Source of the DNA: Planctomycetota bacterium
GTDB lineage: Bacteria > Planctomycetota > Phycisphaerae > SM23-33
Length of the DNA: 64,000 nt
Direction: 5' to 3'
NCBI GenBank assembly: GCA_030635145.1
Contig: DAOVZK010000005.1
Location: 16,694 to 80,693 of the forward strand
Of the stretch, positions 10,646 through 60,556 are shown piece after piece. A program made the translations under genes and the position numbers. Position 1 is the first letter of the stretch; each line of letters begins with the position of its first letter. The notes under the pieces were generated by a model, which saw only the letters and a list, made by a program, of their open reading frames with translations, was not told the origin of the DNA and did not search any database.

Positions 10646-11275
10646 TTGCAACGCGACCCGCGAATTTCAATTCCCCCGTCACAAAACAACTACGCCGACG
10701 CGGTGCAGCACGCCGTTGCGCATTTGGGCGCTCAGGGTAGCTCTCAGCTGGAACTGTTGGGGGCCAAACCCAACGGAAATTTGTGGCAGCTGCCCGTCCT
10801 GAACGACACGTTTGATGTCGACACAAAAACCGGATGCGTGGGGGCAAGTTCGGGGCAGCCTGTGGGGTTGCCGTGGAGGATACTTACGTTGCATTATCTC
10901 GCAGTTCGCGGGAATGTCGAAAAGCAAATCCCGTCGGTAGGGTTTGCGGATATTTCGGCTGGGCGGAGTTATGCGGGGGTTTACAAAGCTCGCGTGATTT
11001 CGCGATTGTGTGCAACAGTCGGCCGCACCGCCGAAACCCTGTGCTCCGCCGCTGACAATATTGGTGGGGTTGCGATCGAAGATTCAGACCTCGGATACGA
11101 CTTTGATATTTTTCCGCAAATCACCCTTCGCCTGCTATGGTACGCCCCGGACGACGAGTTTCCGGCGTCTGCGTCGCTTTTATTGCCGAAAAATATTTTG
11201 TCATTTTTCAGCGTGGAGGATACAGTTGTACTTTCGGAATCGTTGATCGCCCGATTGTCGGGTAAAGATTTTTGA
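10646..11275 (+). CDS. Conserved hypothetical protein in the acs operon (possibly DUF3786-like)
   Basis: 209-aa ORF with a TTG start 1 nt after the acsE stop. No recognisable catalytic motif; its operon position is the only functional clue. Confidence 0.45.
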   Translation: MQRDPRISIPPSQNNYADAVQHAVAHLGAQGSSQLELLGAKPNGNLWQLPVLNDTFDVDTKTGCVGASSGQPVGLPWRILTLHYLAVRGNVEKQIPSVGFADISAGRSYAGVYKARVISRLCATVGRTAETLCSAADNIGGVAIEDSDLGYDFDIFPQITLRLLWYAPDDEFPASASLLLPKNILSFFSVEDTVVLSESLIARLSGKDF

Positions 11276-30762: not shown

Positions 30763-32397
30763 ATGGCAAAGAAGAATATTACATTTGATACCGAGGCCCG
30801 CGAAGCGATTCGTCGTGGTGTACAGCAGCTCACCAAAGCGGTAAAAGTTACGCTTGGCCCGACCGGCCGCGTTGTTGTGTTAGAAAAAAGTTTTGGCGCA
30901 CCTACCGTCACGAAAGACGGTGTCAGCGTCGCGAAGGAAATCGAACTCGAAGACGCAAACGAAAACATGGGCGCCCAGATGGTCAAGGAAGTCGCATCGA
31001 AAACTTCCGACGTTGCTGGTGACGGAACGACGACGGCTACGATTTACGCCGAGGCAATCTTCAACGAAGGCCTCAAAAACGTAACCGCCGGTGCCAAGGC
31101 CATGCAGCTGCGCCGCGGAATCGACCTCGCCGTCACCGCCATCGTCGCCGAACTCGGTAAGATGTCGAACCCCGTGCAGACCTCCAAGGAAATCGCCCAG
31201 GTCGGCACCTGTGCCGCAAATCAGGACGTCGAAATCGGCAAGATGATTTCGCAGGCGATGGACAAAGTCGGCAAAGACGGCGTGATTACGGTTGAAGAAG
31301 GCAAGGGCCTCGACACCTACGTCGACCTCGTCGAAGGTATGCAGTTCGACAAAGGTTACATCAGCCCTCACTTCGTCAACAAACCCGAAACGATGGAAGT
31401 CGATTTCGAAAAACCGTTCATTCTGATTTTCGAGAAGAAGATTTCGACCATCAAAGACCTTGTCCCGCTGCTGGAAAAAATCGCACAGTCAGGCCGACCG
31501 CTCGCGATCATTGCCGAAGACGTCGACGGTGAAGCACTCGCGACTTTGGTCGTCAATAAGCTTCGCGGTACATTCCAGTGCGTAGCCATCAAGGCCCCGG
31601 GCTTTGGTGACCGCCGCAAAGAAATGCTCAACGACATTGCCGTCCTCACTGGCGGCAAGGCCATCATGGAAGACATGGGCGTCACGCTCGAGAGTCTCGA
31701 AATTTCCGACCTCGGAACCGCAAAGCGTCTCCGCGTTGACAAGGAAAATACGACCATCATCGAAGGTGCCGGCGCCGAAAAAGACATCGTCGGCCGCATC
31801 GAGCAGATCAAGGCTCAGATCGAAGCGACGACCAGCGACTACGACTGCGAAAAACTCGAAGAACGCCTCGCCAAACTTTCCGGCGGCGTAGCCCAGATCA
31901 ACGTTGGTGCCGCCACCGAAGTTGAAATGAAGGAAAAGAAGGCCCGCGTCGAAGACGCCCTGCACGCCTGCCGTGCTGCCGTCGAAGAAGGCATCCTCCC
32001 AGGTGGTGGCGTTGCCGTTCTGCGAGCCATCAAGGTTCTCAATAAGGTCAAGTGCAGCGACGACGACATCAAAACCGGCGTCGACATCATTCGCCGTGCA
32101 CTCGTAGCCCCCATCAAGCAGATCGCCTCAAACAGCGGACTCGACGGTGCCATCGTCGCCGCCAAGGTCATCGACACCGACGAACAGAACTTTGGTTACA
32201 ATGCCCTTACCGCCAAGTACTGCGACCTTGTCAAAGACGGCGTTATCGTACCGACCAAGGTCGAACGTACGGCCCTCCAAAACGCCGCCAGCGTCGCCGG
32301 TTTGCTGCTGACGACAGATGCAATCGTCTCGGATATCCCCGAGAAAAACGCAGCCCCAGCTATGCCCGACATGGGCGGAATGGGCGGCATGATGTAA
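30763..32397 (+). CDS. groEL: Chaperonin GroEL
   Basis: Full-length 544 aa with an AAVEEG ... GGG-M C-terminal tail (GGMGGMM). Confidence 0.95.
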
Positions 32398-32435
32398 TAG
32401 CGAAATCCGCATAATGCGGGTTGACTGATACAGAA

Positions 32436-32488
32436 ACGGCGGGTTGTGGTTGCCTTCAATAGCTCCCACGGCCCGCCGTTTTTTTTGT
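32436..32488 (+). terminator. Rho-independent terminator after groEL
   Basis: acggcggg ... cccgccgt stem followed by a T8 run. Confidence 0.55.
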
Positions 32489-32543
32489 ACTGGTGCGCTT
32501 TTAAGTTCACACTATTGGTGAATTTGTCAGGTATGGATAATGG

Positions 32544-54450: not shown

Positions 54451-54704
54451 TTATTTACATGCGGTGTTACCGCCCACCAGCGGTGGAGGCTAAATTACAT
54501 GCTACCTTACCTGTCGTGCGAAATTGTTCCATCTGGGATGAAATCCAGGGTAAAACACCACCCAGAGGACATGGGCTTGGCATCTCACCGGTAAATTGCT
54601 TCAAGATTTTGTTTTGCGTTTTTTCACGGCCATCCACTTCATTGTCGAAAAAAGTCTTTGCACCAATTCCCCATGTGTTTATAATGTCGCGACTGAAATC
54701 ACAC

Positions 54705-54778
<74 letters not shown>

Positions 54779-55201
54779 TAGGTTGCGGTTCTCTGTTTTC
54801 GCAGGGAGCCGCTTGTTTATGCATAGGCCTGCAAACAAAGGGTTTGCTCACATCGCGATTTTTTCCATGCGAACCAGTGCGAGCCGAAACGGCTGTGGAC
54901 TGCACCGGAAAATACACCGCTTTTTCAAAGTGATCTTCAGTTACCTGCAGATAATGCTTGGCTGCGACAGCTGGGCTCTTCCAGGCGAACGCACTTACGG
55001 ACATCTTCCATAAATTTGTAAATTCATATAATCAATCTCCACGTTCAATATTTGCCATCAAAACCTTCGACATCAATTGGATAACATCTAAACTTCTGGC
55101 TAAATTGAAACGAGGTTTGGCTTTTATTTCAAATTCCGATAACGACGAGAATCTACCTATCATCAATGCCTTCTTTGCACAAGTATAAGGCCATCCACTG
55201 T

Positions 55202-56074
55202 CTAAAGTTTATTTTCGATCAGTTCCATAAACTTTCGGCCGTAGCTGATGTAGTTCTCGTATCTAATATGCTCTTCGGACTCTACGCTGTCGTCATGGAA
55301 CACGACGGCCAGGTGAGGCTCCATTGAAATCCCGCCATCATAGCCGTTGTCGAGGAGGTCCTTGACTATTCGTTTCACATCACCGTCGCCCTCACCGGCA
55401 AAGGTAAACGCGCATTTGTTTTCTTCAGCATTCCACACACCATCCTTGATATGAACATAAGCGATATGCTGTTTTACGTTTTTATAAAACTCCCAGGCAG
55501 ACTGCTTAGGATAGGGTTGAGGTTTGGTGCGGTCGTCAGTGAAGACGGGATTACCTGTGTCGAATACAAGTTTCAGGTCGGGGATTTTCTCAACGAGTTC
55601 CAATGTATATGTCCACCCCATCCCCCCGTAATTCATGCAGTTTTCGTGGACGGGCAGAATACCTTCGTCAGTGAACATTTTGCATACTTCACTGACACGT
55701 TTGACACGTTCGTCAAACATTTGGTCATCAGGGCTGCGATCCGGAAGGACGGCGTAGCTCATAATGCGGACGAGTTTGGTTCCGAGTTTTTTCATGCGAG
55801 GAATGGCACGGCCGACTTCTTCAAGCGAAGTATCGTCCTCGAGTTTGTCTATGTGCTTGCCCCAATTACAAATAGTCGAGCCGAAACAGTTAACCTTCAC
55901 CCCGGCATCGGCTAGCTTTCCATAGACAACATCAAACTCTTCGTCCGAAATATCCGTAATGTTTTTCCCGTCAATATTGCGAGATTCAATATTGTTCCAA
56001 CCAAGCTCGAGGGTGGCTTTGATCTGAATATTTATGCTGCTTCCAGCTTCGTCGGCAAATCCTGTAAGGTACAT
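55202..56074 (-). CDS. Sugar-phosphate isomerase/epimerase (xylose-isomerase-like TIM barrel)
   Basis: AP-endonuclease-2/XylA-like TIM pattern. Lower-GC gene. Confidence 0.7.
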   Translation of the reverse strand: MYLTGFADEAGSSINIQIKATLELGWNNIESRNIDGKNITDISDEEFDVVYGKLADAGVKVNCFGSTICNWGKHIDKLEDDTSLEEVGRAIPRMKKLGTKLVRIMSYAVLPDRSPDDQMFDERVKRVSEVCKMFTDEGILPVHENCMNYGGMGWTYTLELVEKIPDLKLVFDTGNPVFTDDRTKPQPYPKQSAWEFYKNVKQHIAYVHIKDGVWNAEENKCAFTFAGEGDGDVKRIVKDLLDNGYDGGISMEPHLAVVFHDDSVESEEHIRYENYISYGRKFMELIENKL

Positions 56075-56106
56075 TTAATTCTCCAATAAACGATTATGAA
56101 TTTCGT

Positions 56107-57270
56107 TTAGTAGGTGCCTTTTGTGTCCAGCACGTTATTTTTATTGGGATCTTTATCAGCCTTCGAGTTTGCGATCTTTTCCTGTAGTATCGAGAAGAAC
56201 AGGTCGTCGTCAAAGCTCTCCAGTTCAATCATTTTATCAGTCCATGATGAAAGAAGCATGGCATTTGAAAGCATCAGACTATTAAGCCCTTCGGTTCCGG
56301 GAGCCAGCAGTTTGCTGCCAGTATTGATCGAATCTACCCAGTTTTGAAGGATTGTTTTGTGCTGCTCAGGATTTATTCCATCAACGGGAATTTCACACTT
56401 CCAGCACTCTGGCGCCCCGAACCCGCCAGTGAAGGTTTTGTTAAATTTGCGTTCTGAAACACGGTTTCGCCAGAATGTTATTTTTCCGTCTTCGAACACT
56501 AGCTTTCCGTTGTCTGCAGCAATTTCAAATCTGTTTGAACCTGGGGCTTCGCCAGTCGCACTAATGAATACTCCCGTTGCTCCGTTTTTGTATTCGACAA
56601 ACGCCGTCACATCGTCTTCGACTTCAATATCATGATATTTACCAAAGGAGCAATGGGCTCTGACTGTTGCAGGCATCCCGCACATCCACTGCCACAGATC
56701 AAGTTGGTGTGGGCACTGGTTGAGTAAAACCCCGCCGCCTTCACCTTTCCATGTCGCACGCCATCCACCGGAATCATAATAACTCTGAGGGCGATACCAG
56801 CTGGTTATGATCCAGTTGGTACGTTTGATTTCACCAAGTTCACCCGAGTCGACCAGATCTTTAATTTTCTGATGAGCAGATATCGAACGCTGGTTGAACA
56901 TGATCCCGAAAACCTTGCCTGACTTTTCGGCCGCCGCGTTCATCTCTCTGACATGCTTCGTATAAACACCGCTAGGTTTTTCGATCAACACGTGTTTGCC
57001 TTTATCGAAAGCCTTTATCGCCATCTCAGGATGAAAATAATGTGGTGTGGCAATCAGTATCGCATCAAGTTTCGCACTGTCAAGCATGGCGTCAATATGA
57101 TCAAACACATCAACTTCCGAGCGGAGTTCCTTGTTAAACAATTCCAACTTTTCCGGTGCGATATCGGACACCGCCACCAGTTTTCCGCCTTCAATTGTTT
57201 TGATGTTGTCGGCATGAGTTTTGCCCATGTTGCCGTATCCAACCAATCCTATTTTTACTTTTTCAGACAT
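56107..57270 (-). CDS. Gfo/Idh/MocA-family NAD(P)-dependent oxidoreductase
   Basis: N-terminal Rossmann fold (IGLVGYGNMG) and a C-terminal alpha/beta domain. Confidence 0.85.
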   Translation of the reverse strand: MSEKVKIGLVGYGNMGKTHADNIKTIEGGKLVAVSDIAPEKLELFNKELRSEVDVFDHIDAMLDSAKLDAILIATPHYFHPEMAIKAFDKGKHVLIEKPSGVYTKHVREMNAAAEKSGKVFGIMFNQRSISAHQKIKDLVDSGELGEIKRTNWIITSWYRPQSYYDSGGWRATWKGEGGGVLLNQCPHQLDLWQWMCGMPATVRAHCSFGKYHDIEVEDDVTAFVEYKNGATGVFISATGEAPGSNRFEIAADNGKLVFEDGKITFWRNRVSERKFNKTFTGGFGAPECWKCEIPVDGINPEQHKTILQNWVDSINTGSKLLAPGTEGLNSLMLSNAMLLSSWTDKMIELESFDDDLFFSILQEKIANSKADKDPNKNNVLDTKGTY

Positions 57271-57307
57271 TTTCGTTCCTAATTTACATAGTTTATATTG
57301 ACGTGTA

Positions 57308-58087
57308 TTATTTTAATCCTTTGGATGCCAAGAAATTATAGCTGCTGGCCAGACACTCGAATGGATCTCGGCCGTAACATTCATCCTGCTCTATGAGATA
57401 CCATCTGCAATTGCTTTCGGCGGCGGCTGGGAGAATTTCATCCCAGTCGAGATTTCCCTCGCCAATGGCAGCCATCCTCTGCTCTCGTTTAGTACCGTCA
57501 AAAAATATCGACATATCCTTGAGATGGAACAGCGGCTGGCGATTGGGATATCTACGCACCCATTCAGCCGGGTTTCCACCACCCGCCTGCACCCAATACG
57601 TGTCAATTTCGGCTTTGAGCATTTCAGCAGGCGCTGTTTCGTAAAGCGATTCAAGCCATAACTTACCGTCGTATTTCACGAACTCATGGTTGTGGTTGTG
57701 GTATGAAAAATCAAGGCCGGCCGCCGCAAGTTTTTCCGCTACTGGTCCGAGTTGATCAACAAAACGCTTTATAGCATCAAGCCCGATCCAGTCCGCGCCA
57801 AACAGCCCGCCGATAGCAGCGTGCTTGCAACCCCATGTCAAATGCTCTTCGATTACGGCGTCGGTCTCGTTGAGAAAACGATCCCATGCCATGTGTGTAC
57901 CAGCTACGGTGATTTGATTATCCTGGCAAATCTTCGCCACATCCTGGGGGTCGAGCGGGCCGATTGCGGATATCTGCACAGCGGTATAGCCCATCGCTGC
58001 GATTTTTTTGATCGTTTGCTCAAAGTCTACCAATGTCTGCGTAAATTTACGCACCGTATACAATTGAACGCCTAGTACATTTTGCAT
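57308..58087 (-). CDS. Sugar-phosphate isomerase/epimerase (xylose-isomerase-like TIM barrel)
   Basis: TIM pattern with a GGAGA RBS before the ATG at 58087. Confidence 0.7.
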   Translation of the reverse strand: MQNVLGVQLYTVRKFTQTLVDFEQTIKKIAAMGYTAVQISAIGPLDPQDVAKICQDNQITVAGTHMAWDRFLNETDAVIEEHLTWGCKHAAIGGLFGADWIGLDAIKRFVDQLGPVAEKLAAAGLDFSYHNHNHEFVKYDGKLWLESLYETAPAEMLKAEIDTYWVQAGGGNPAEWVRRYPNRQPLFHLKDMSIFFDGTKREQRMAAIGEGNLDWDEILPAAAESNCRWYLIEQDECYGRDPFECLASSYNFLASKGLK

Positions 58088-58248
58088 TTGCAAGATTCTC
58101 CAAAGTTTGGTATTGAACAAGAGATAAAGGCAATACCCAAGCACTTAAACTAACCTATTAATGGAAATATTTCTAATCTCTTTTAATCAAAAACTTGCTC
58201 AAAATGATCATTGTGCTTTTTGCAATTCTTGTTAAACTGAAGCATATC

Positions 58249-59031
58249 ATGGCTGAATATCCTATCAATGTAATAAGCTTCAATATAAACAGTGCAGGCA
58301 AGGATTATTGTGTCCCGCCGCATAGACATAATTTTTGGCAGTTCTATTACTTAAAAGATGGTGATGTAGAAATGACGGTTTCCGAAAATAAGTTTTGTCT
58401 GACAAACGGCAACAGCATCCTCATTCCACCAAGAGTTATACGTTCGCCAAAATGTATTGGTAAGCCTCCATATTACATGTTCGTGTTATTCAAAAATATT
58501 TGCCTTGATATCGATGGGATGCGCGAAAAAGTACTTCATGCCCAATCCGAACAGCAGGATCAGGCCCAAAAAATATTTGATGAAATCAAAATGCCAAAAG
58601 ATATGAATTCATCGTACCTCCTGACTTCCACTCTGATTAATTTGCTTATTGAGTTGCGGCGGATGCTGGAGCAGAAACAAACTTTCAGCGAGGAGTATTA
58701 CGACGAAATCGTCTCAAAAGTAGACATGTACATGCGAAGTAATCTTCACTTACCGCTGCGGCGAAAGGATATTGCACATATTGCTCATGTCTCTCCGCCA
58801 CATCTGGCCAGAATATTTCATCATGTTCTGGGAATGCCACCCCTGAAAAGGCTGACACAATTGCGGATGCAACACGCCAAGTTCCTCCTCAGCCAAAGCA
58901 CCCAGCCCATAACAACAATTAGTGCGAATGTTGGATATGAATCGATAAGCCATTTTTCGCGATTGTTTCGAAAACACTCAGATAAATCTCCACGCCAGTT
59001 CCGAAAAGAGTTTTTCGAAAATTTAACGTAG
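58249..59031 (+). CDS. AraC-family transcriptional regulator (N-terminal cupin plus C-terminal HTH)
   Basis: The C-terminal helices IAHIAHVSPPHLARIFH and ISANVGYESISHFSRLFRK match the AraC HTH signature. Confidence 0.8.
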   Translation: MAEYPINVISFNINSAGKDYCVPPHRHNFWQFYYLKDGDVEMTVSENKFCLTNGNSILIPPRVIRSPKCIGKPPYYMFVLFKNICLDIDGMREKVLHAQSEQQDQAQKIFDEIKMPKDMNSSYLLTSTLINLLIELRRMLEQKQTFSEEYYDEIVSKVDMYMRSNLHLPLRRKDIAHIAHVSPPHLARIFHHVLGMPPLKRLTQLRMQHAKFLLSQSTQPITTISANVGYESISHFSRLFRKHSDKSPRQFRKEFFENLT

Positions 59032-59182
59032 CCCCAGCAAGACATAGTGCCATTTTTTAATCTGTCAATCCGAGGGCGAGAGTTTAACGCAGATAGAATA
59101 ATTCTGAAAGGAAGAAGAATCGCAAAAAGCATCACAACCAATAGCGATTTACCTATCCTGGTTCCATGATGATTAATGTCCC

Positions 59183-59254
59183 TGACTCCTCGAGTAGGAC
59201 TCGAACTTACAACCTAGCGGTTAATCAGCCTGCGGCTGACTCGCTCTACCAATT
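59183..59254 (-). repeat. Degenerate duplicate of the 3' two-thirds of tRNA-Asn (att-like direct repeat of 60122-60197)
   Basis: 59183-59254 aligns base for base with 60122-60190 apart from about 6 substitutions and a 6-nt insertion, then diverges where the tRNA 5' acceptor strand would be. Confidence 0.6.
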
Positions 59255-59439
59255 TTTGCATCCAGCCACTGGCGTCCGGCACCGGATTTAAGCCATTTTT
59301 CACGGGTCATAGCTTCAGCTCGGGTTTGATACTCTTCTGAATGGGCCAATTCCCATGTACCCGAATATTTGCTGGTGAAACGGAGAGCTTCAGAGAGTTT
59401 TCGTTCCGCAAATGGGGATTCTGTGGCAGAGCGTGGAAA
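59221..59439 (-). pseudogene. C-terminal fragment of a GIY-YIG (UPF0213/YhbQ-like) nuclease; no start codon
   Basis: ...KYSGTWELAHSEEYQTRAEAMTREKWLKSGAGRQW matches the GIY-YIG C-terminal consensus (ELVYSEEFETRSEALKRE.QIK). The frame opens just after a stop, and its 3' end runs into the tRNA-Asn fragment. Confidence 0.4.
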
Positions 59440-59538
59440 TCACACCGCCAGAATAGAACGTCAGAGAGCCAGCGAGAAGGTGGGGGAATCGCCCTAAGTC
59501 TTTGATAACATTGGGACTTTAACTGGTCTCGATTGTAC

Positions 59539-60039
59539 TCATTCAGCGTTAAGTTGTTTCAGTCCATTCGAGACGGCGTCCAACAGTATACCAAGAACCA
59601 GTTCTCCCCCAAGGATCAGGCGATTGTTGTCCGAGTCTACATGAATTCCATGAGATAATTTGTTCCAATCAATCTGAACGGCATACCCTGTTTTATTGTC
59701 AAGTTCCAGTTGATCACCTTCGTGTACGAGTGGATTTCTTAGAAATTTGTAAAGGATTTGCTCAAATGGCAAAATTTCCCCCGTGTTGGGAACTTGAATA
59801 TTATGAACTTGAGATCTTCCTGGCCTCCGCATTTGTTTCTTCAAAAAATCTTCGAAACGAACTCCAACCTTTTTTTCATTTGGAAAGTGTTGTCTTGCAA
59901 GGGCATCAACGGCACACAGGAGCAGGAGCATGGCACTATATTTCCGTTGGAAATTCAGAAGGCCAACGGCATCCTGAAGCATCCACCCTACATCATTATG
60001 AGGTAGTTTTATCTCAGAGTCAGACATCGGTATCTCCAA
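59539..60039 (-). CDS. Hypothetical protein (166 aa, AT-rich) inside the tRNA-Asn-bounded remnant
   Basis: Intact ORF with visibly lower GC than its surroundings. No recognisable domain. Confidence 0.45.
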   Translation of the reverse strand: MEIPMSDSEIKLPHNDVGWMLQDAVGLLNFQRKYSAMLLLLCAVDALARQHFPNEKKVGVRFEDFLKKQMRRPGRSQVHNIQVPNTGEILPFEQILYKFLRNPLVHEGDQLELDNKTGYAVQIDWNKLSHGIHVDSDNNRLILGGELVLGILLDAVSNGLKQLNAE

Positions 60040-60121
60040 ATGACAAAAAGCCTGCCTGATTTTTCAGACAGGCTTTTCGCCGTTAACTTTAACAGGGCGT
60101 TTTTACGCACCTGATTGATTT

Positions 60122-60197
60122 TGGCTCCCCGAGTAGGACTCGAACCTACGACCTAGCGGTTAACAGCCGCTCGCTCTACCAATTGAGCTATCGGGGA
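60122..60197 (-). tRNA. tRNA-Asn (anticodon GUU), CCA encoded
   Basis: TCCCCGATAGCTCAATTGGTAGAGCG ... CTGTTAA anticodon loop ... GGTTCGAGTCC ... CTCGGGGAGCCA. Confidence 0.9.
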
Positions 60198-60556
60198 AAA
60201 CTCCACCAACTCTGAAATTGAGGGACAGTACAATTTAGTGATTCACGGGGAAATGTCAAGCGATTTGGGATACTTAAGGGATTTTTTTTCGGTTTACGGG
60301 CGGTAACACTGCTTGTTTTTAAAGTTGTCGGTTATCTGTATTCAGCGTGCAGAAAGACCTATGAGCACCAAACCCTAGAGCAATTAACGATTAAGATGTG
60401 GGATGCCGCCGCCGCAGCCAGCATGAACCCCGCAGGTCAAGCGTTAATTGCCCTAATATCCAGAAGAACCATCGGCAGGCGGAATTCATTGGGAATTGGG
60501 AATTGGTCATTTTCTATCCCGGCCGATGCCACTTACCACGGGATAAAATCCTGCCC

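What the first reader, a model, noticed from the sequence alone, without database searches (positions are those of the whole stretch)
59183..60197. tRNA-Asn with a duplicated 3' fragment 0.87 kb away: remnant of an integrated element carrying a GIY-YIG fragment and one orphan gene
The intact tRNA-Asn(GUU) at 60122-60197 (minus strand) has a roughly 72-nt degenerate copy of its 3' two-thirds at 59183-59254, in the same orientation, downstream of the tRNA 3' end. This is the classic attL/attR arrangement left by integrase-mediated insertion into a tRNA gene. The bracketed 0.9 kb holds only a start-less C-terminal fragment of a GIY-YIG nuclease (59221-59439) and an AT-rich 166-aa ORF of unknown function (59539-60039). 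No integrase is left, so this looks like a decayed islet whose surviving cargo gene may be a toxin, Abi-type or otherwise selected function.
Basis: seen in the sequence. Interest (0 to 1): 0.6.

Follow-up and report, generated by a model that had tools for sequence, protein, structure and literature searches.

The report
Decayed tRNA-Asn-linked GIY-YIG nuclease cassette
The half-copy of the asparagine tRNA gene is the tail of a dead copy of a tiny, apparently undescribed cassette: a 90-residue nuclease gene wedged between a working tRNA gene and a palindrome-disrupted partial duplicate of that tRNA, found in many Planctomycetota and some other bacteria.

Summary
tRNA-Asn(GTT) lies at 60122-60197 (-). 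A co-oriented copy of its positions 14-73 lies at 59183-59254, with the anticodon-arm bases CGGCTG replaced by a 15-nt palindrome.

The tRNA fragment and the GIY-YIG fragment are one unit. In more than 100 loci from other genomes and metagenomes, an 83-96 aa GIY-YIG gene of the UPF0213/SLX1 type starts 1-18 nt after an intact tRNA. It stops inside a partial second copy of that same tRNA, whose loop is replaced by a TC...GA palindrome. Close relatives use tRNA-Asn. More distant ones use Met, Ser, Arg, Pro or Thr. No integrase is ever part of the unit.

The window holds a dead copy. The nuclease gene lacks its first ~24 codons and 7 internal codons, and the tRNA copy has drifted to 92% identity.

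Best reading: a selfish, tRNA-gene-invading nuclease cassette that keeps the tRNA working by duplicating part of it. The mechanism is inferred, not shown. I found no description of it in the literature.

The parts
60232..60259 (-). Sigma-70-like promoter of tRNA-Asn (TTGACA-16-TAAATT)
   Evidence: Consensus scan, 10 of 12 matches. The -35 element is conserved in L001. Function is inferred.
60122..60197 (-). Intact tRNA-Asn(GTT)
   Evidence: ARAGORN. Rfam RF00005, 72.7 bits.
60045..60121 (-). Native 3' trailer (CCAAAATCAATCAGG...) and intrinsic terminator hairpin (stem-loop 60050-60074, T-run 60045-60049)
   Evidence: Read from the sequence. The hairpin aligns to the terminator part of an Rfam model. 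The same trailer and terminator follow the intact tRNA in L001, but follow the last partial tRNA copy in L086 and L012.
59539..60027 (-). 162-aa gene of the PF27329 (Rv1289) family, a probable HEPN-domain RNase. GGAGA ribosome-binding site at 60033-60037. Rx4H motif (RNPLVH) encoded at 59722-59739.
59464..59538 (-). 3' flank of the HEPN gene shared with L001. Collinearity with L001 ends at 59464.
   Evidence: blastn: 88% identity over 59464-60197.
59407..59463 (-). 57-nt spacer of unknown origin between the shared block and the nuclease pseudogene
   Evidence: No similarity to any fetched locus.
59221..59406 (-). GIY-YIG nuclease pseudogene, covering residues ~25-92 of a 91-aa protein. It has a 7-codon internal deletion and no GIY/YIG motifs. 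The stop codon TAA (59221-59223) and the last ~11 codons (IGRASQPQAD) are encoded by the tRNA copy.
   Evidence: blastx against full-length relatives. Homologues P0026 and P0027 have the same tail. Pfam PF01541 match only at E 0.07.
59183..59254 (-). Partial tRNA-Asn copy ('tRNA*'): D-loop and D-stem 3' side (59240-59254), palindrome in place of the anticodon-arm 5' side (59225-59239), then anticodon 3' side, variable loop, T arm and acceptor 3' strand (59186-59224)
   Evidence: Alignments. The same architecture occurs in L010, L011, L012 and 94 genome stretches.

Best explanation
The 72-nt tRNA-Asn copy and the GIY-YIG fragment together are a dead copy of a compact cassette that lives at tRNA genes.

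What an intact cassette looks like (shown):
- It holds one gene for an 83-96 aa nuclease made of a GIY-YIG catalytic domain only, of the UPF0213/SLX1 type.
- The gene's TTG or GTG start lies 1-18 nt after the 3' end of a functional tRNA.
- The reading frame ends inside a partial second copy of that same tRNA.
- In that copy, a loop is replaced by a 13-23 nt TC...GA palindrome. For tRNA-Asn, the replaced bases are CGGCTG on the 5' side of the anticodon arm.
- The cassette sits between the tRNA and the tRNA's native trailer.
- It can stack in tandem.
- It is also found at Met, Ser, Arg, Pro and Thr tRNA genes.

How it most likely works (inferred): it is a selfish element that invades a tRNA gene at or near the anticodon loop. 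It keeps the host alive by leaving one complete tRNA and displacing a partial copy. It spreads and homogenises through nuclease-induced breaks repaired by homology with the tRNA repeats. The palindrome marks the disrupted site, or is the structure the nuclease recognises.

The window's copy: the nuclease gene is truncated, the tRNA copy has drifted, and 0.87 kb now separates the cassette from the tRNA. That 0.87 kb holds the native trailer, a terminator and a probable HEPN RNase gene. This block is either the ordinary chromosomal neighbour of the tRNA or a later insertion.

Confidence by layer: about 0.9 that the window feature is a decayed member of this cassette family, and about 0.5 that the family is a mobile element driven by nuclease and repair. 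The overall figure given is 0.6.
For: 1. Conserved fusion. Full-length homologues from unrelated metagenomes end in GRAS(Q/P)P(Q/K)AD, encoded by the same palindrome-bearing tRNA-Asn piece.
2. Recurrence. A DNA pattern for the palindrome-bearing piece hits 94 genome stretches, nearly all Planctomycetota with some Chloroflexota.
3. Fixed layout. 5'-type partial copies are always upstream of an intact tRNA-Asn and 3'-type copies always downstream. Of 42 flank-complete loci, 29 have the GIY gene. Its first residue falls at +3/+4 in 14 loci and at +17/+18 in 8. A TTG or GTG start directly follows TCGGGGAGN.
4. Tandem units occur, including two different GIY subfamilies in one array.
5. A protein-based scan that ignored tRNAs found tRNA-Asn, Met, Ser, Arg, Pro or Thr just upstream of the GIY gene. 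It also found a partial copy of the same tRNA downstream: 41 of 45 downstream segments beat all 200 shuffles.
6. Insertion polymorphism. The same trailer and terminator abut the intact tRNA in the window and L001, but abut the last partial copy in L086 and L012.
7. The 3' part of the partial copy is 100% identical to the resident tRNA in 22 of 31 units, including lineage-specific T-stem variants. In the window it is 92%.
8. In the genome loci, every partial copy carries the palindrome and the native anticodon arm occurs only in complete tRNAs.
9. The palindrome stems covary: 94% of cells paired, 24 double-change cells against 5.9 in shuffles, 0 of 500 shuffles as high. There are 62 distinct palindromes, 7 pairs that differ by loop inversion, and 5 perfect palindromes.
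10. Catalytic residues are invariant. Median dN/dS is 0.13. The closest solved structures are UPF0213 proteins and SLX1.
11. The window's copy is a truncated pseudogene.
Against: - No cleavage or mobility has been shown.
- The protein has no DNA-binding domain, so sequence-specific homing of the I-TevI/SegB kind is doubtful.
- An occupied locus still holds an intact tRNA, which is potentially cleavable. Immunity of the carrier allele is therefore unexplained.
- Strong purifying selection and long persistence (dS up to 1.4) would also fit a host-useful gene.
- Eleven loci have only 5'-type fragments and no nuclease gene. My account of these as repair scars is speculative.
- The palindrome sequence is conserved across tRNA isotypes and across loops, which suggests a function of its own that I could not identify.
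- In the window, the cassette is not adjacent to the tRNA, and the event that separated them is unknown.
- I found no occupied/empty pair within a single species. Synteny around the window's locus is broken even in the closest relatives.
Confidence: 0.6

Rival explanations
1. A tyrosine or serine integrase inserted an islet (HEPN gene plus GIY-YIG gene) into the 3' part of tRNA-Asn. The intact tRNA is attL and the fragment is attR. The integrase was later deleted.
For: The geometry is that of attL/attR. The HEPN gene is AT-rich, 43% GC against 52% for the window. The block from the tRNA to 59464 recurs in L001 with different genes on both sides, so it could be a discrete module. Insertion of that block between the tRNA and an older cassette would explain why the GIY gene is truncated at its 5' end.
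Against: The fragment is fused to the GIY gene exactly as in more than 100 loci that have no integrase and no room for one. No second tRNA fragment marks the far end of the HEPN block. L001 has the block without any fragment. The trailer after the intact tRNA is the native one. There is no integrase near the locus: the ORFs listed across 56-64 kb are sugar-metabolism enzymes, an AraC-type regulator, serine acetyltransferase, rubrerythrin and MgtE.
Confidence: 0.12
2. The cassette is not mobile. It is a host or addiction module transcribed with the tRNA. The palindrome-bearing pseudo-tRNA acts as RNA, either as a 3' processing or stability element for the nuclease mRNA, or as a hairpin antitoxin or decoy that binds the nuclease, as the RNA repeats do in type III toxin-antitoxin systems.
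For: The start codon abuts the tRNA 3' end, leaving no room for a separate promoter. Every nuclease gene is followed by a hairpin. Extra hairpin-bearing repeats form tandem arrays upstream. Palindrome type tracks nuclease subfamily: TCCGCC with subfamily i, TCCCGA/TCCCGG with subfamily ii, TCCGGCAG with subfamily iii. The TCCGCC-N3-GGCGGA hairpin is kept across different tRNAs and different loops. dN/dS is 0.13.
Against: Perfect palindromes with no loop, and loop inversions, point to behaviour at the DNA level. The link between palindrome and subfamily could simply reflect tight linkage, and there are exceptions (L033, L161). Some cassettes have no palindrome at all (L147, L158, L170). The same tRNA / gene / partial-tRNA layout at six isotypes, plus the trailer polymorphism, needs repeated insertion events. 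The window shows the gene is dispensable.
Confidence: 0.2
3. An ancestral tandem duplication of tRNA-Asn, followed by decay of the second copy. The intervening genes are ordinary neighbours.
For: Tandem tRNA genes are common (general knowledge). The copy is degenerate in the window.
Against: The 'decay' is the same discrete replacement of CGGCTG by a palindrome in 164 units. The copy always lacks its 5' end and is always fused to a GIY-YIG reading frame. The same layout recurs at other tRNA isotypes. L001 lacks the copy.
Confidence: 0.03

Closest known systems
SegB of phages T4/T6 (free-standing GIY-YIG homing endonuclease in the tRNA gene cluster)
   Same: It is a GIY-YIG nuclease gene lying among tRNA genes. 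It cleaves tRNA-gene DNA and drives preferential inheritance and segmental (tandem) amplification of tRNA-containing segments (PMC2330249; PMC13096335, read). The tandem [GIY + tRNA copy] arrays seen here resemble that amplification.
   Different: SegB is a phage protein about twice as long, with a separate DNA-binding region (from my own knowledge of the Seg family, not tested here). It has no fixed fusion to a partial tRNA copy and no palindrome. The cassette here is chromosomal. In IMG/VR viral contigs only one close relative turned up, at the host edge of a predicted provirus. NCBIfam gives only a weak, sub-threshold match to the N-terminal motif of group I intron endonucleases.
Integrase-borne genomic islands and prophages integrated in tRNA genes (attL/attR)
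   Same: An intact tRNA plus a co-oriented displaced 3' partial copy. Serial stacking at one tRNA. Junctions in the anticodon loop, T loop or 3' end, which are the sublocations known for integrases (the sublocation point is from my own knowledge; the general arrangement is described in PMC9897764).
   Different: There is no integrase. The whole unit is 0.3-0.4 kb with a single nuclease gene. The repeat is interrupted by a palindrome. 5' partial copies also occur upstream of the tRNA.
UPF0213 proteins (BH0048, EF2693) and the SLX1 structure-specific endonuclease
   Same: These are the best sequence matches among solved structures: 1zg2 at 1.4e-14, 1ywl at 1.3e-12, SLX1 at 4e-6. They share the small URI-type GIY-YIG catalytic domain.
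   Different: No tRNA linkage or mobile behaviour is described for UPF0213 proteins in the literature I could search. SLX1 carries a RING/PHD domain and works with SLX4 (my own knowledge).
HEPN-domain RNases (HEPN-MNT toxins, AbiV, Csm6 HEPN domains), compared with the 162-aa ORF only
Type III toxin-antitoxin systems (ToxIN) and REP/RAYT palindrome systems
   Same: Tandem short structured repeats next to a small nuclease gene. Palindromic hairpins flanking a nuclease gene.
   Different: The nuclease folds are unrelated (ToxN is an endoRNase, RAYT is an HUH transposase; my own knowledge). Here the repeats are tRNA-derived and fixed at one tRNA locus. Nothing was tested.

Membership tests
tRNA-linked GIY-YIG cassette (the family defined here) | The nuclease reading frame terminates inside a partial copy of a tRNA | tested here: met
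   In the window, the stop codon at 59221-59223 and the tail IGRASQPQAD are encoded by the tRNA copy. P0026, P0027 and many loci have the same tail.
tRNA-linked GIY-YIG cassette (the family defined here) | A TC...GA palindrome replaces CGGCTG in the anticodon arm of the partial copy | tested here: met
   TCAGCC-GCA-GGCTGA at 59225-59239. There are 164 units with 62 variants elsewhere.
tRNA-linked GIY-YIG cassette (the family defined here) | The nuclease gene starts within ~20 nt of the 3' end of an intact, co-oriented tRNA of the same isotype | tested here: not met
   In the window, 0.7 kb (trailer, terminator, HEPN gene) lies between them and the gene's 5' end is missing. The canonical spacing is +3/+4 or +17/+18. 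The window copy is a rearranged remnant.
GIY-YIG nuclease superfamily (PF01541) | GIY and YIG motifs plus conserved Arg, His and Glu | tested here: not met
   For the window copy, only the C-terminal half survives (Glu of REKWLK is present). GIY, YIG and His are absent and Pfam gives E 0.07. Full-length relatives have all of them invariant and carry PF01541.
Free-standing homing endonuclease gene | Site-specific cleavage of the allele that lacks the gene | not testable with these tools
   Needs biochemistry.
Free-standing homing endonuclease gene | Presence/absence polymorphism at a defined site | tested here: inconclusive
   The same trailer abuts the intact tRNA (window, L001) or the last partial copy (L086, L012). 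These are different species, though, and no within-species pair was found.
Free-standing homing endonuclease gene | A separate DNA-binding domain that gives long-site specificity | tested here: not met
   The proteins are 83-96 aa, a catalytic domain only.
Integrase-mediated tRNA-integrated island | An integrase gene inside the element next to the tRNA | tested here: not met
   None in the window locus. None in intact cassettes of 0.3-0.4 kb.
Integrase-mediated tRNA-integrated island | Direct repeat formed by the tRNA 3' part at both ends | tested here: met
   15/15 plus 36/39 matching positions, same orientation, although the repeat is interrupted by the palindrome.
HEPN RNase superfamily (the 162-aa ORF) | Rx4-6H motif | tested here: met
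   R97-N-P-L-V-H102. R97, P99 and H102 are invariant in 23 homologues.
HEPN RNase superfamily (the 162-aa ORF) | HEPN helical fold | tested here: inconclusive
HEPN RNase superfamily (the 162-aa ORF) | RNase activity or toxicity | not testable with these tools
   Needs experiment.

The most novel reading that the evidence does not exclude
The cassettes are a previously unrecognised class of minimal mobile or addictive element built on a structure-specific (SLX1-like) nuclease rather than on an integrase, transposase or long-site homing enzyme. The 90-residue protein would recognise its own TC...GA palindrome, or the cloverleaf-forming DNA of a tRNA gene, in hairpin or cruciform shape. It would cut there and let homologous repair between tRNA repeats copy, stack and homogenise the unit. 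Alternatively, the palindromic hairpin RNA neutralises the nuclease, as the antitoxin RNA does in a type III toxin-antitoxin system. Either way this would be a new way of parasitising tRNA genes across several isotypes and at least two phyla.
Probability: 0.3. Interest if true: 0.85.

Novelty: new variant of a known kind. Interest (0 to 1): 0.66.

Why it matters
If the reading is right, tRNA genes in Planctomycetota, Chloroflexota and other bacteria host a family of 0.3-kb nuclease-only cassettes. These restore their target by partial duplication, carry a conserved palindrome, stack in tandem and switch between tRNA isotypes.

This would add a third way of exploiting tRNA genes, alongside integrase-borne islands and intron or homing elements. 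It would also give the widespread, uncharacterised UPF0213 type of GIY-YIG protein a concrete biological setting.

There is a practical side too. The palindrome-bearing copies are sometimes called as odd tRNAs by ARAGORN (Cys, Arg, Thr, Phe, Ser). The nuclease proteins carry tRNA-encoded tails. Both are annotation artefacts worth knowing about.

For this window alone the feature is a dead remnant. The neighbouring HEPN-like gene is a candidate RNase toxin of unknown role.

Tried and rejected
- Rfam on the locus and on eight related loci finds only the intact tRNAs. No known RNA family covers the partial copy or the palindrome.
- PADLOC, PHROGs, NCBIfam and the local Pfam copy give nothing for the 162-aa ORF. 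A PDB sequence profile search also finds nothing, and Foldseek against the PDB finds nothing significant.
- I looked for an upstream N-terminal remnant of the nuclease gene in other frames. My by-eye suggestion ('FYSGGVISTLCHRIPICG') was not supported by blastx. The 57-nt spacer matches nothing.
- I tried to find an empty or ancestral site through the neighbouring serine acetyltransferase. The nearest orthologue (87% aa, L187) has no tRNA next to it and shares no other gene with the window. The 69%-identity orthologues lie in a different operon.
- ORF homologues in other loci are not tRNA-linked and do not occur in any cassette locus.
- The idea that the palindromes are a dispersed MITE family was rejected. 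In the genome loci, 136 of 184 TCC...GGA palindromes sit in the tRNA copies. The window has only two unrelated ones.
- The idea that the palindrome arises as P-nucleotide-like repair at a hairpin end was rejected. The same TCCGCC/GGCGGA arms recur in different tRNA contexts.
- My first control for downstream tRNA similarity was flawed, because the random segments contained tRNAs. I replaced it with shuffles.
- Eight literature searches found no description of the cassette.
Full report
**1. The observation**

The window has three tRNA genes. tRNA-Asn(GTT) is at 60122-60197 on the minus strand (Rfam 72.7 bits). A second, co-oriented stretch at 59183-59254 matches it in two blocks. tRNA positions 14-28 match 15 of 15, and positions 35-73 match 36 of 39. 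Between the blocks, six bases of the anticodon arm (CGGCTG) are replaced by a 15-nt palindrome. On the minus strand it reads TCAGCC-GCA-GGCTGA, at 59225-59239.

The local alignment score is 79. The best score anywhere else in the 64 kb is 48, and the median is 14. So the copy is real, and its "degeneracy" is mostly one discrete substitution. Neither ARAGORN nor Rfam treats it as a tRNA.

**2. The two ORFs between the copies**

The GIY-YIG fragment is genuine. blastx aligns 59406->59224 to residues ~25-92 of full-length relatives at E 2e-26. Seven residues, including the conserved His, are deleted, and the N-terminal GIY and YIG motifs are gone. Its last eleven codons and its stop codon lie inside the tRNA copy.

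The other ORF most likely starts at the ATG at 60027, behind a GGAGA, giving 162 aa. It has 25 homologues and a precomputed Pfam family, PF27329 'Rv1289'. It is therefore not an orphan.

**3. The fragment and the nuclease gene are one conserved unit**

A protein search with the fragment returned two full-length 91-aa GIY-YIG proteins from unrelated metagenomes. Both end in GRAS(P/Q)P(Q/K)AD. In both contigs, that tail is encoded by the same palindrome-bearing tRNA-Asn piece. One of them (L011) also has an intact tRNA-Asn plus terminator directly upstream of the gene.

I then scanned for a DNA pattern specific to the piece: GGTAGAGCGAGTC, 6-20 nt, GATTAACCGC. It hit 94 stretches in the species-representative genome collection. 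Nearly all are Planctomycetota (Phycisphaerae/Sedimentisphaerales, Planctomycetaceae, Pirellulales, Kuenenia), with some Chloroflexota. It hit one viral contig.

The units fall into two classes:
- **3'-type copies** lack the tRNA 5' end, are fused to the end of an 83-96 aa GIY-YIG ORF, and always lie downstream of an intact tRNA-Asn.
- **5'-type copies** cover tRNA positions 1 to ~45 with the palindrome, always lie upstream of the intact tRNA, and often form tandem arrays with a period of 80-116 nt (for example L017).

Among 42 loci with enough flanking sequence:

| Content | Loci |
|---|---|
| GIY gene plus 3'-type copy | 18 |
| 5'-type copies only | 11 |
| 5'-type copies plus GIY gene | 6 |
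| All three | 5 |
| Other (3'-type copy only; none of the three) | 2 |

The first residue of the protein falls 3-4 nt after the tRNA end in 14 loci and 17-18 nt after it in 8 loci. A TTG or GTG start codon directly follows TCGGGGAGN.

[GIY + tRNA copy] units also occur in tandem: three in L027 and L076, two in L086 and L068. L033 has two units from different GIY subfamilies.

In this genome set, the native anticodon arm occurs only in complete tRNAs, and every partial copy has the palindrome.

**4. It is general across tRNA isotypes**

A scan of metagenome contigs with a GIY protein alignment paid no attention to tRNAs. It returned 80 loci.
- The closest relatives (53% identity or more) sit just downstream of tRNA-Asn.
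- More distant ones (38-50% identity) sit just downstream of tRNA-Met, Ser (three anticodons), Arg, Pro or Thr.
- Downstream of the gene there is a partial copy of that same tRNA. In 41 of 45 cases the similarity beats all 200 shuffles.
- The copy often carries the same kind of palindrome (TCCGCC-N3-GGCGGA and relatives) in place of the D loop, anticodon loop or T loop. Sometimes it has no palindrome at all, as in L147, L158 and L170.
- Genes with no ARAGORN-called tRNA upstream are mostly preceded by a tRNA 3' fragment. In two independent loci, that fragment starts exactly at position 32 of tRNA-Asn.

In a library of 1.8 billion representative proteins, one family member finds 2660 clusters at E<=1e-3 and 163 at E<=1e-10. 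Many of the best hits carry the GRASPPxAD tail. One ends in GEVAEWSKA, which reads like the 5' part of a class II tRNA.

**5. Evidence that the cassette is an insertion**

In the window and in the related MAG L001, the intact tRNA is followed by a trailer (CCAAAATCAATCAGG...) and an intrinsic terminator. In L086 and L012, the same trailer and terminator follow the last partial copy, with the GIY unit or units lying between the intact tRNA and that copy.

Relative to the empty arrangement, an occupied locus has therefore gained [GIY gene + partial tRNA]. Because of the repeat, this is equivalent to gaining [tRNA 3' part + GIY + D-arm + palindrome] at a point within the tRNA.

The 3' part of the partial copy is identical to the resident tRNA in 22 of 31 units, including lineage-specific T-stem sequences. 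In the window it is only 92% identical. This fits either derivation from the target or continuing gene conversion in live cassettes, followed by drift once the nuclease is dead.

**6. The palindrome**

Across 164 units there are 62 distinct palindromes:
- 47 have an uninterrupted stem of 6 bp or more.
- 5 are perfect palindromes.
- 7 pairs differ only by inversion of the loop.

On an alignment of 22 variants, 94% of cells pair. There are 24 cells changed on both sides, against 5.9 in shuffles, and 0 of 500 shuffles reach that.

Loop inversions and loop-less perfect palindromes point to behaviour at the DNA level, such as template switching in palindromes. Covariation alone therefore does not prove selection for an RNA hairpin.

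Three further points bear on the palindrome's role:
- The outer TCC...GGA and the TCCGCC arms are kept across tRNA isotypes and across loops.
- Palindrome type tracks nuclease subfamily, with exceptions.
- The palindromes are not a dispersed repeat family.

I conclude that the palindrome has a role tied to the nuclease. I could not tell whether that role is as a recognition structure, a disrupted target, or an RNA ligand.

**7. The protein**

Tyr, Tyr, Gly, Arg, His and Glu of the GIY-YIG core are invariant across both subfamilies. Median dN/dS over 21 pairs is 0.13. The best solved relatives are the UPF0213 proteins BH0048 and EF2693, followed by SLX1, a structure-specific endonuclease.

There is no second domain. 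This argues against long-site recognition of the I-TevI/SegB kind. It favours structure recognition or help from another factor.

**8. Mechanism**

Shown: the architecture, its recurrence, the trailer polymorphism, the identity between repeats, stacking, and decay.

Inferred: the cassette is a selfish element that enters a tRNA gene, with recurrent junctions at positions 31-35, the D loop and the 3' end. It leaves one complete tRNA and a displaced partial copy. It propagates and homogenises through nuclease-induced breaks repaired between tRNA repeats. Unequal repair would give the tandem arrays and, more speculatively, the 5'-type fragments.

The closest documented behaviour is that of phage SegB, a GIY-YIG homing endonuclease that co-localises with tRNA genes and drives segmental amplification (PMC2330249; PMC13096335).

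Weak points:
- No activity is shown.
- The carrier allele still holds an intact tRNA.
- The protein lacks a DNA-binding domain.
- Purifying selection would also fit a host-useful or addictive module.

The main rival is an RNA-level reading, in which the hairpin is a processing element or an antitoxin. I give that 0.2.

**9. The window's own history**

The window's copy is atypical. The intact tRNA is followed by its native trailer, a terminator and the 162-aa gene. The truncated nuclease gene and the partial tRNA copy come only after a further 57 nt of unassigned sequence.

The block from the tRNA promoter to 59464 is 88% identical to L001, where both outer flanks differ and no tRNA fragment exists. 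Two histories fit:
- That block was inserted, or recombined in through the tRNA, between the tRNA and an older cassette, removing the nuclease gene's 5' end.
- The cassette is the remnant of a rearranged second locus.

I could not decide between them, because synteny is already broken in the nearest relatives.

**10. The 162-aa gene**

It is therefore a probable HEPN RNase. No partner gene was found and its role is unknown. Its homologues elsewhere are not tRNA-linked.

**11. Novelty**

Eight full-text searches found nothing describing a bacterial tRNA / small GIY-YIG / partial-tRNA cassette or its palindromes. The library lacks most subscription journals, so an earlier description cannot be excluded.

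I file it as a new variant of known kinds, namely free-standing nuclease elements and tRNA-site insertions. The window holds a dead member.

Noticed in passing
window 54700-60400: A low-GC block (0.36-0.48, against 0.51-0.58 outside) runs from tRNA-Met (54705-54778, +) to tRNA-Asn (60122-60197, -). It covers two xylose-isomerase-like TIM-barrel genes, a Gfo/Idh/MocA oxidoreductase, the AraC regulator, the dead cassette and the HEPN gene. It may be an acquired sugar-metabolism islet bounded by two tRNA genes.
   Followed up: no
window 32388-32543 (-): Between groEL and a DnaQ-like exonuclease gene there is a weak match to the middle of subfamily-ii GIY proteins (HQYKKNGGPWELL against KFTHKNGPWELV). 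E is 0.2-0.9, which is not significant, and no tRNA is nearby. It could be a very old remnant or chance.
   Followed up: partly
L012 8038-10069 (-), just past the trailer at ~10690-10780: In the only viral-collection contig with a close relative of the window's cassette, a DUF2924 gene and a large serine recombinase lie immediately beyond the tRNA trailer. The predicted provirus seems to have integrated next to the tRNA-Asn locus, and the cassette sits on the host side.
   Followed up: partly
L010 391-471; L012 245-329 (reverse-complement coordinates); L013, L044, L087, L094, L151 and others: ARAGORN sometimes calls the palindrome-bearing copies as tRNAs with arbitrary anticodons (Cys-GCA, Arg-CCT, Thr-AGT, Arg-GCG, Phe-GAA, Ser-GGA, or undetermined). 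The palindrome plus its flanks has the size of an anticodon arm. This is a source of spurious tRNA annotations.
   Followed up: partly
L017 5845-6300; also L036, L063, L055, L015, L085: Tandem arrays of 5'-type units. In L017 each unit holds tRNA-Asn positions 1-48 with the palindrome, a short spacer, a 16-nt tRNA 5' stub and the tRNA's own upstream flank. The unit repeats four times before the intact tRNA. The origin of these arrays is unexplained.
   Followed up: partly
L024, L018, L023, L034, L051, L099, L100, L101 (3'-type units); L144, L161, L186 (tRNA-Met): A second palindrome of the same kind replaces the T loop of tRNA-Asn copies, or the D loop and T arm of tRNA-Met copies. The palindromes go specifically into tRNA loops.
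   Followed up: partly
L133 2951-2992; L140 101-142: Two independent decayed loci have a partial tRNA-Asn copy upstream of the GIY gene. It starts exactly at position 32 (CTGTTAACC...), has a native anticodon and is preceded by unrelated sequence. A tRNA-Pro copy in L158 also starts at position 32. This recurrent breakpoint lies on the 5' side of the anticodon loop.
   Followed up: partly
P0175 (protein representative): This GIY-YIG protein has the C-terminal tail GEVAEWSKAARC, which reads like the 5' part of a class II tRNA (Ser/Leu-type GGTGAAGTGGCCGAGTGGTCGAAGGC). tRNA-encoded tails are therefore not confined to the Asn subfamily.
   Followed up: no
L001 5760-6564 against window 59464-60260: The module of promoter, tRNA-Asn, trailer, terminator and HEPN gene is 88% identical between two MAGs, while the genes on both sides differ completely (S8 peptidase and URO-D against SAT and AraC). 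The nearest SAT orthologue is only 81% identical at the DNA level, so the module may itself have moved.
   Followed up: partly
L005-L008 (HEPN-family homologue P0020): In these contigs the PF27329 homologue is followed, after 8 nt, by an RNase_H_2 (PF13482) gene and a low-molecular-weight phosphatase gene. This could be a functional partnership. It was not examined.
   Followed up: no
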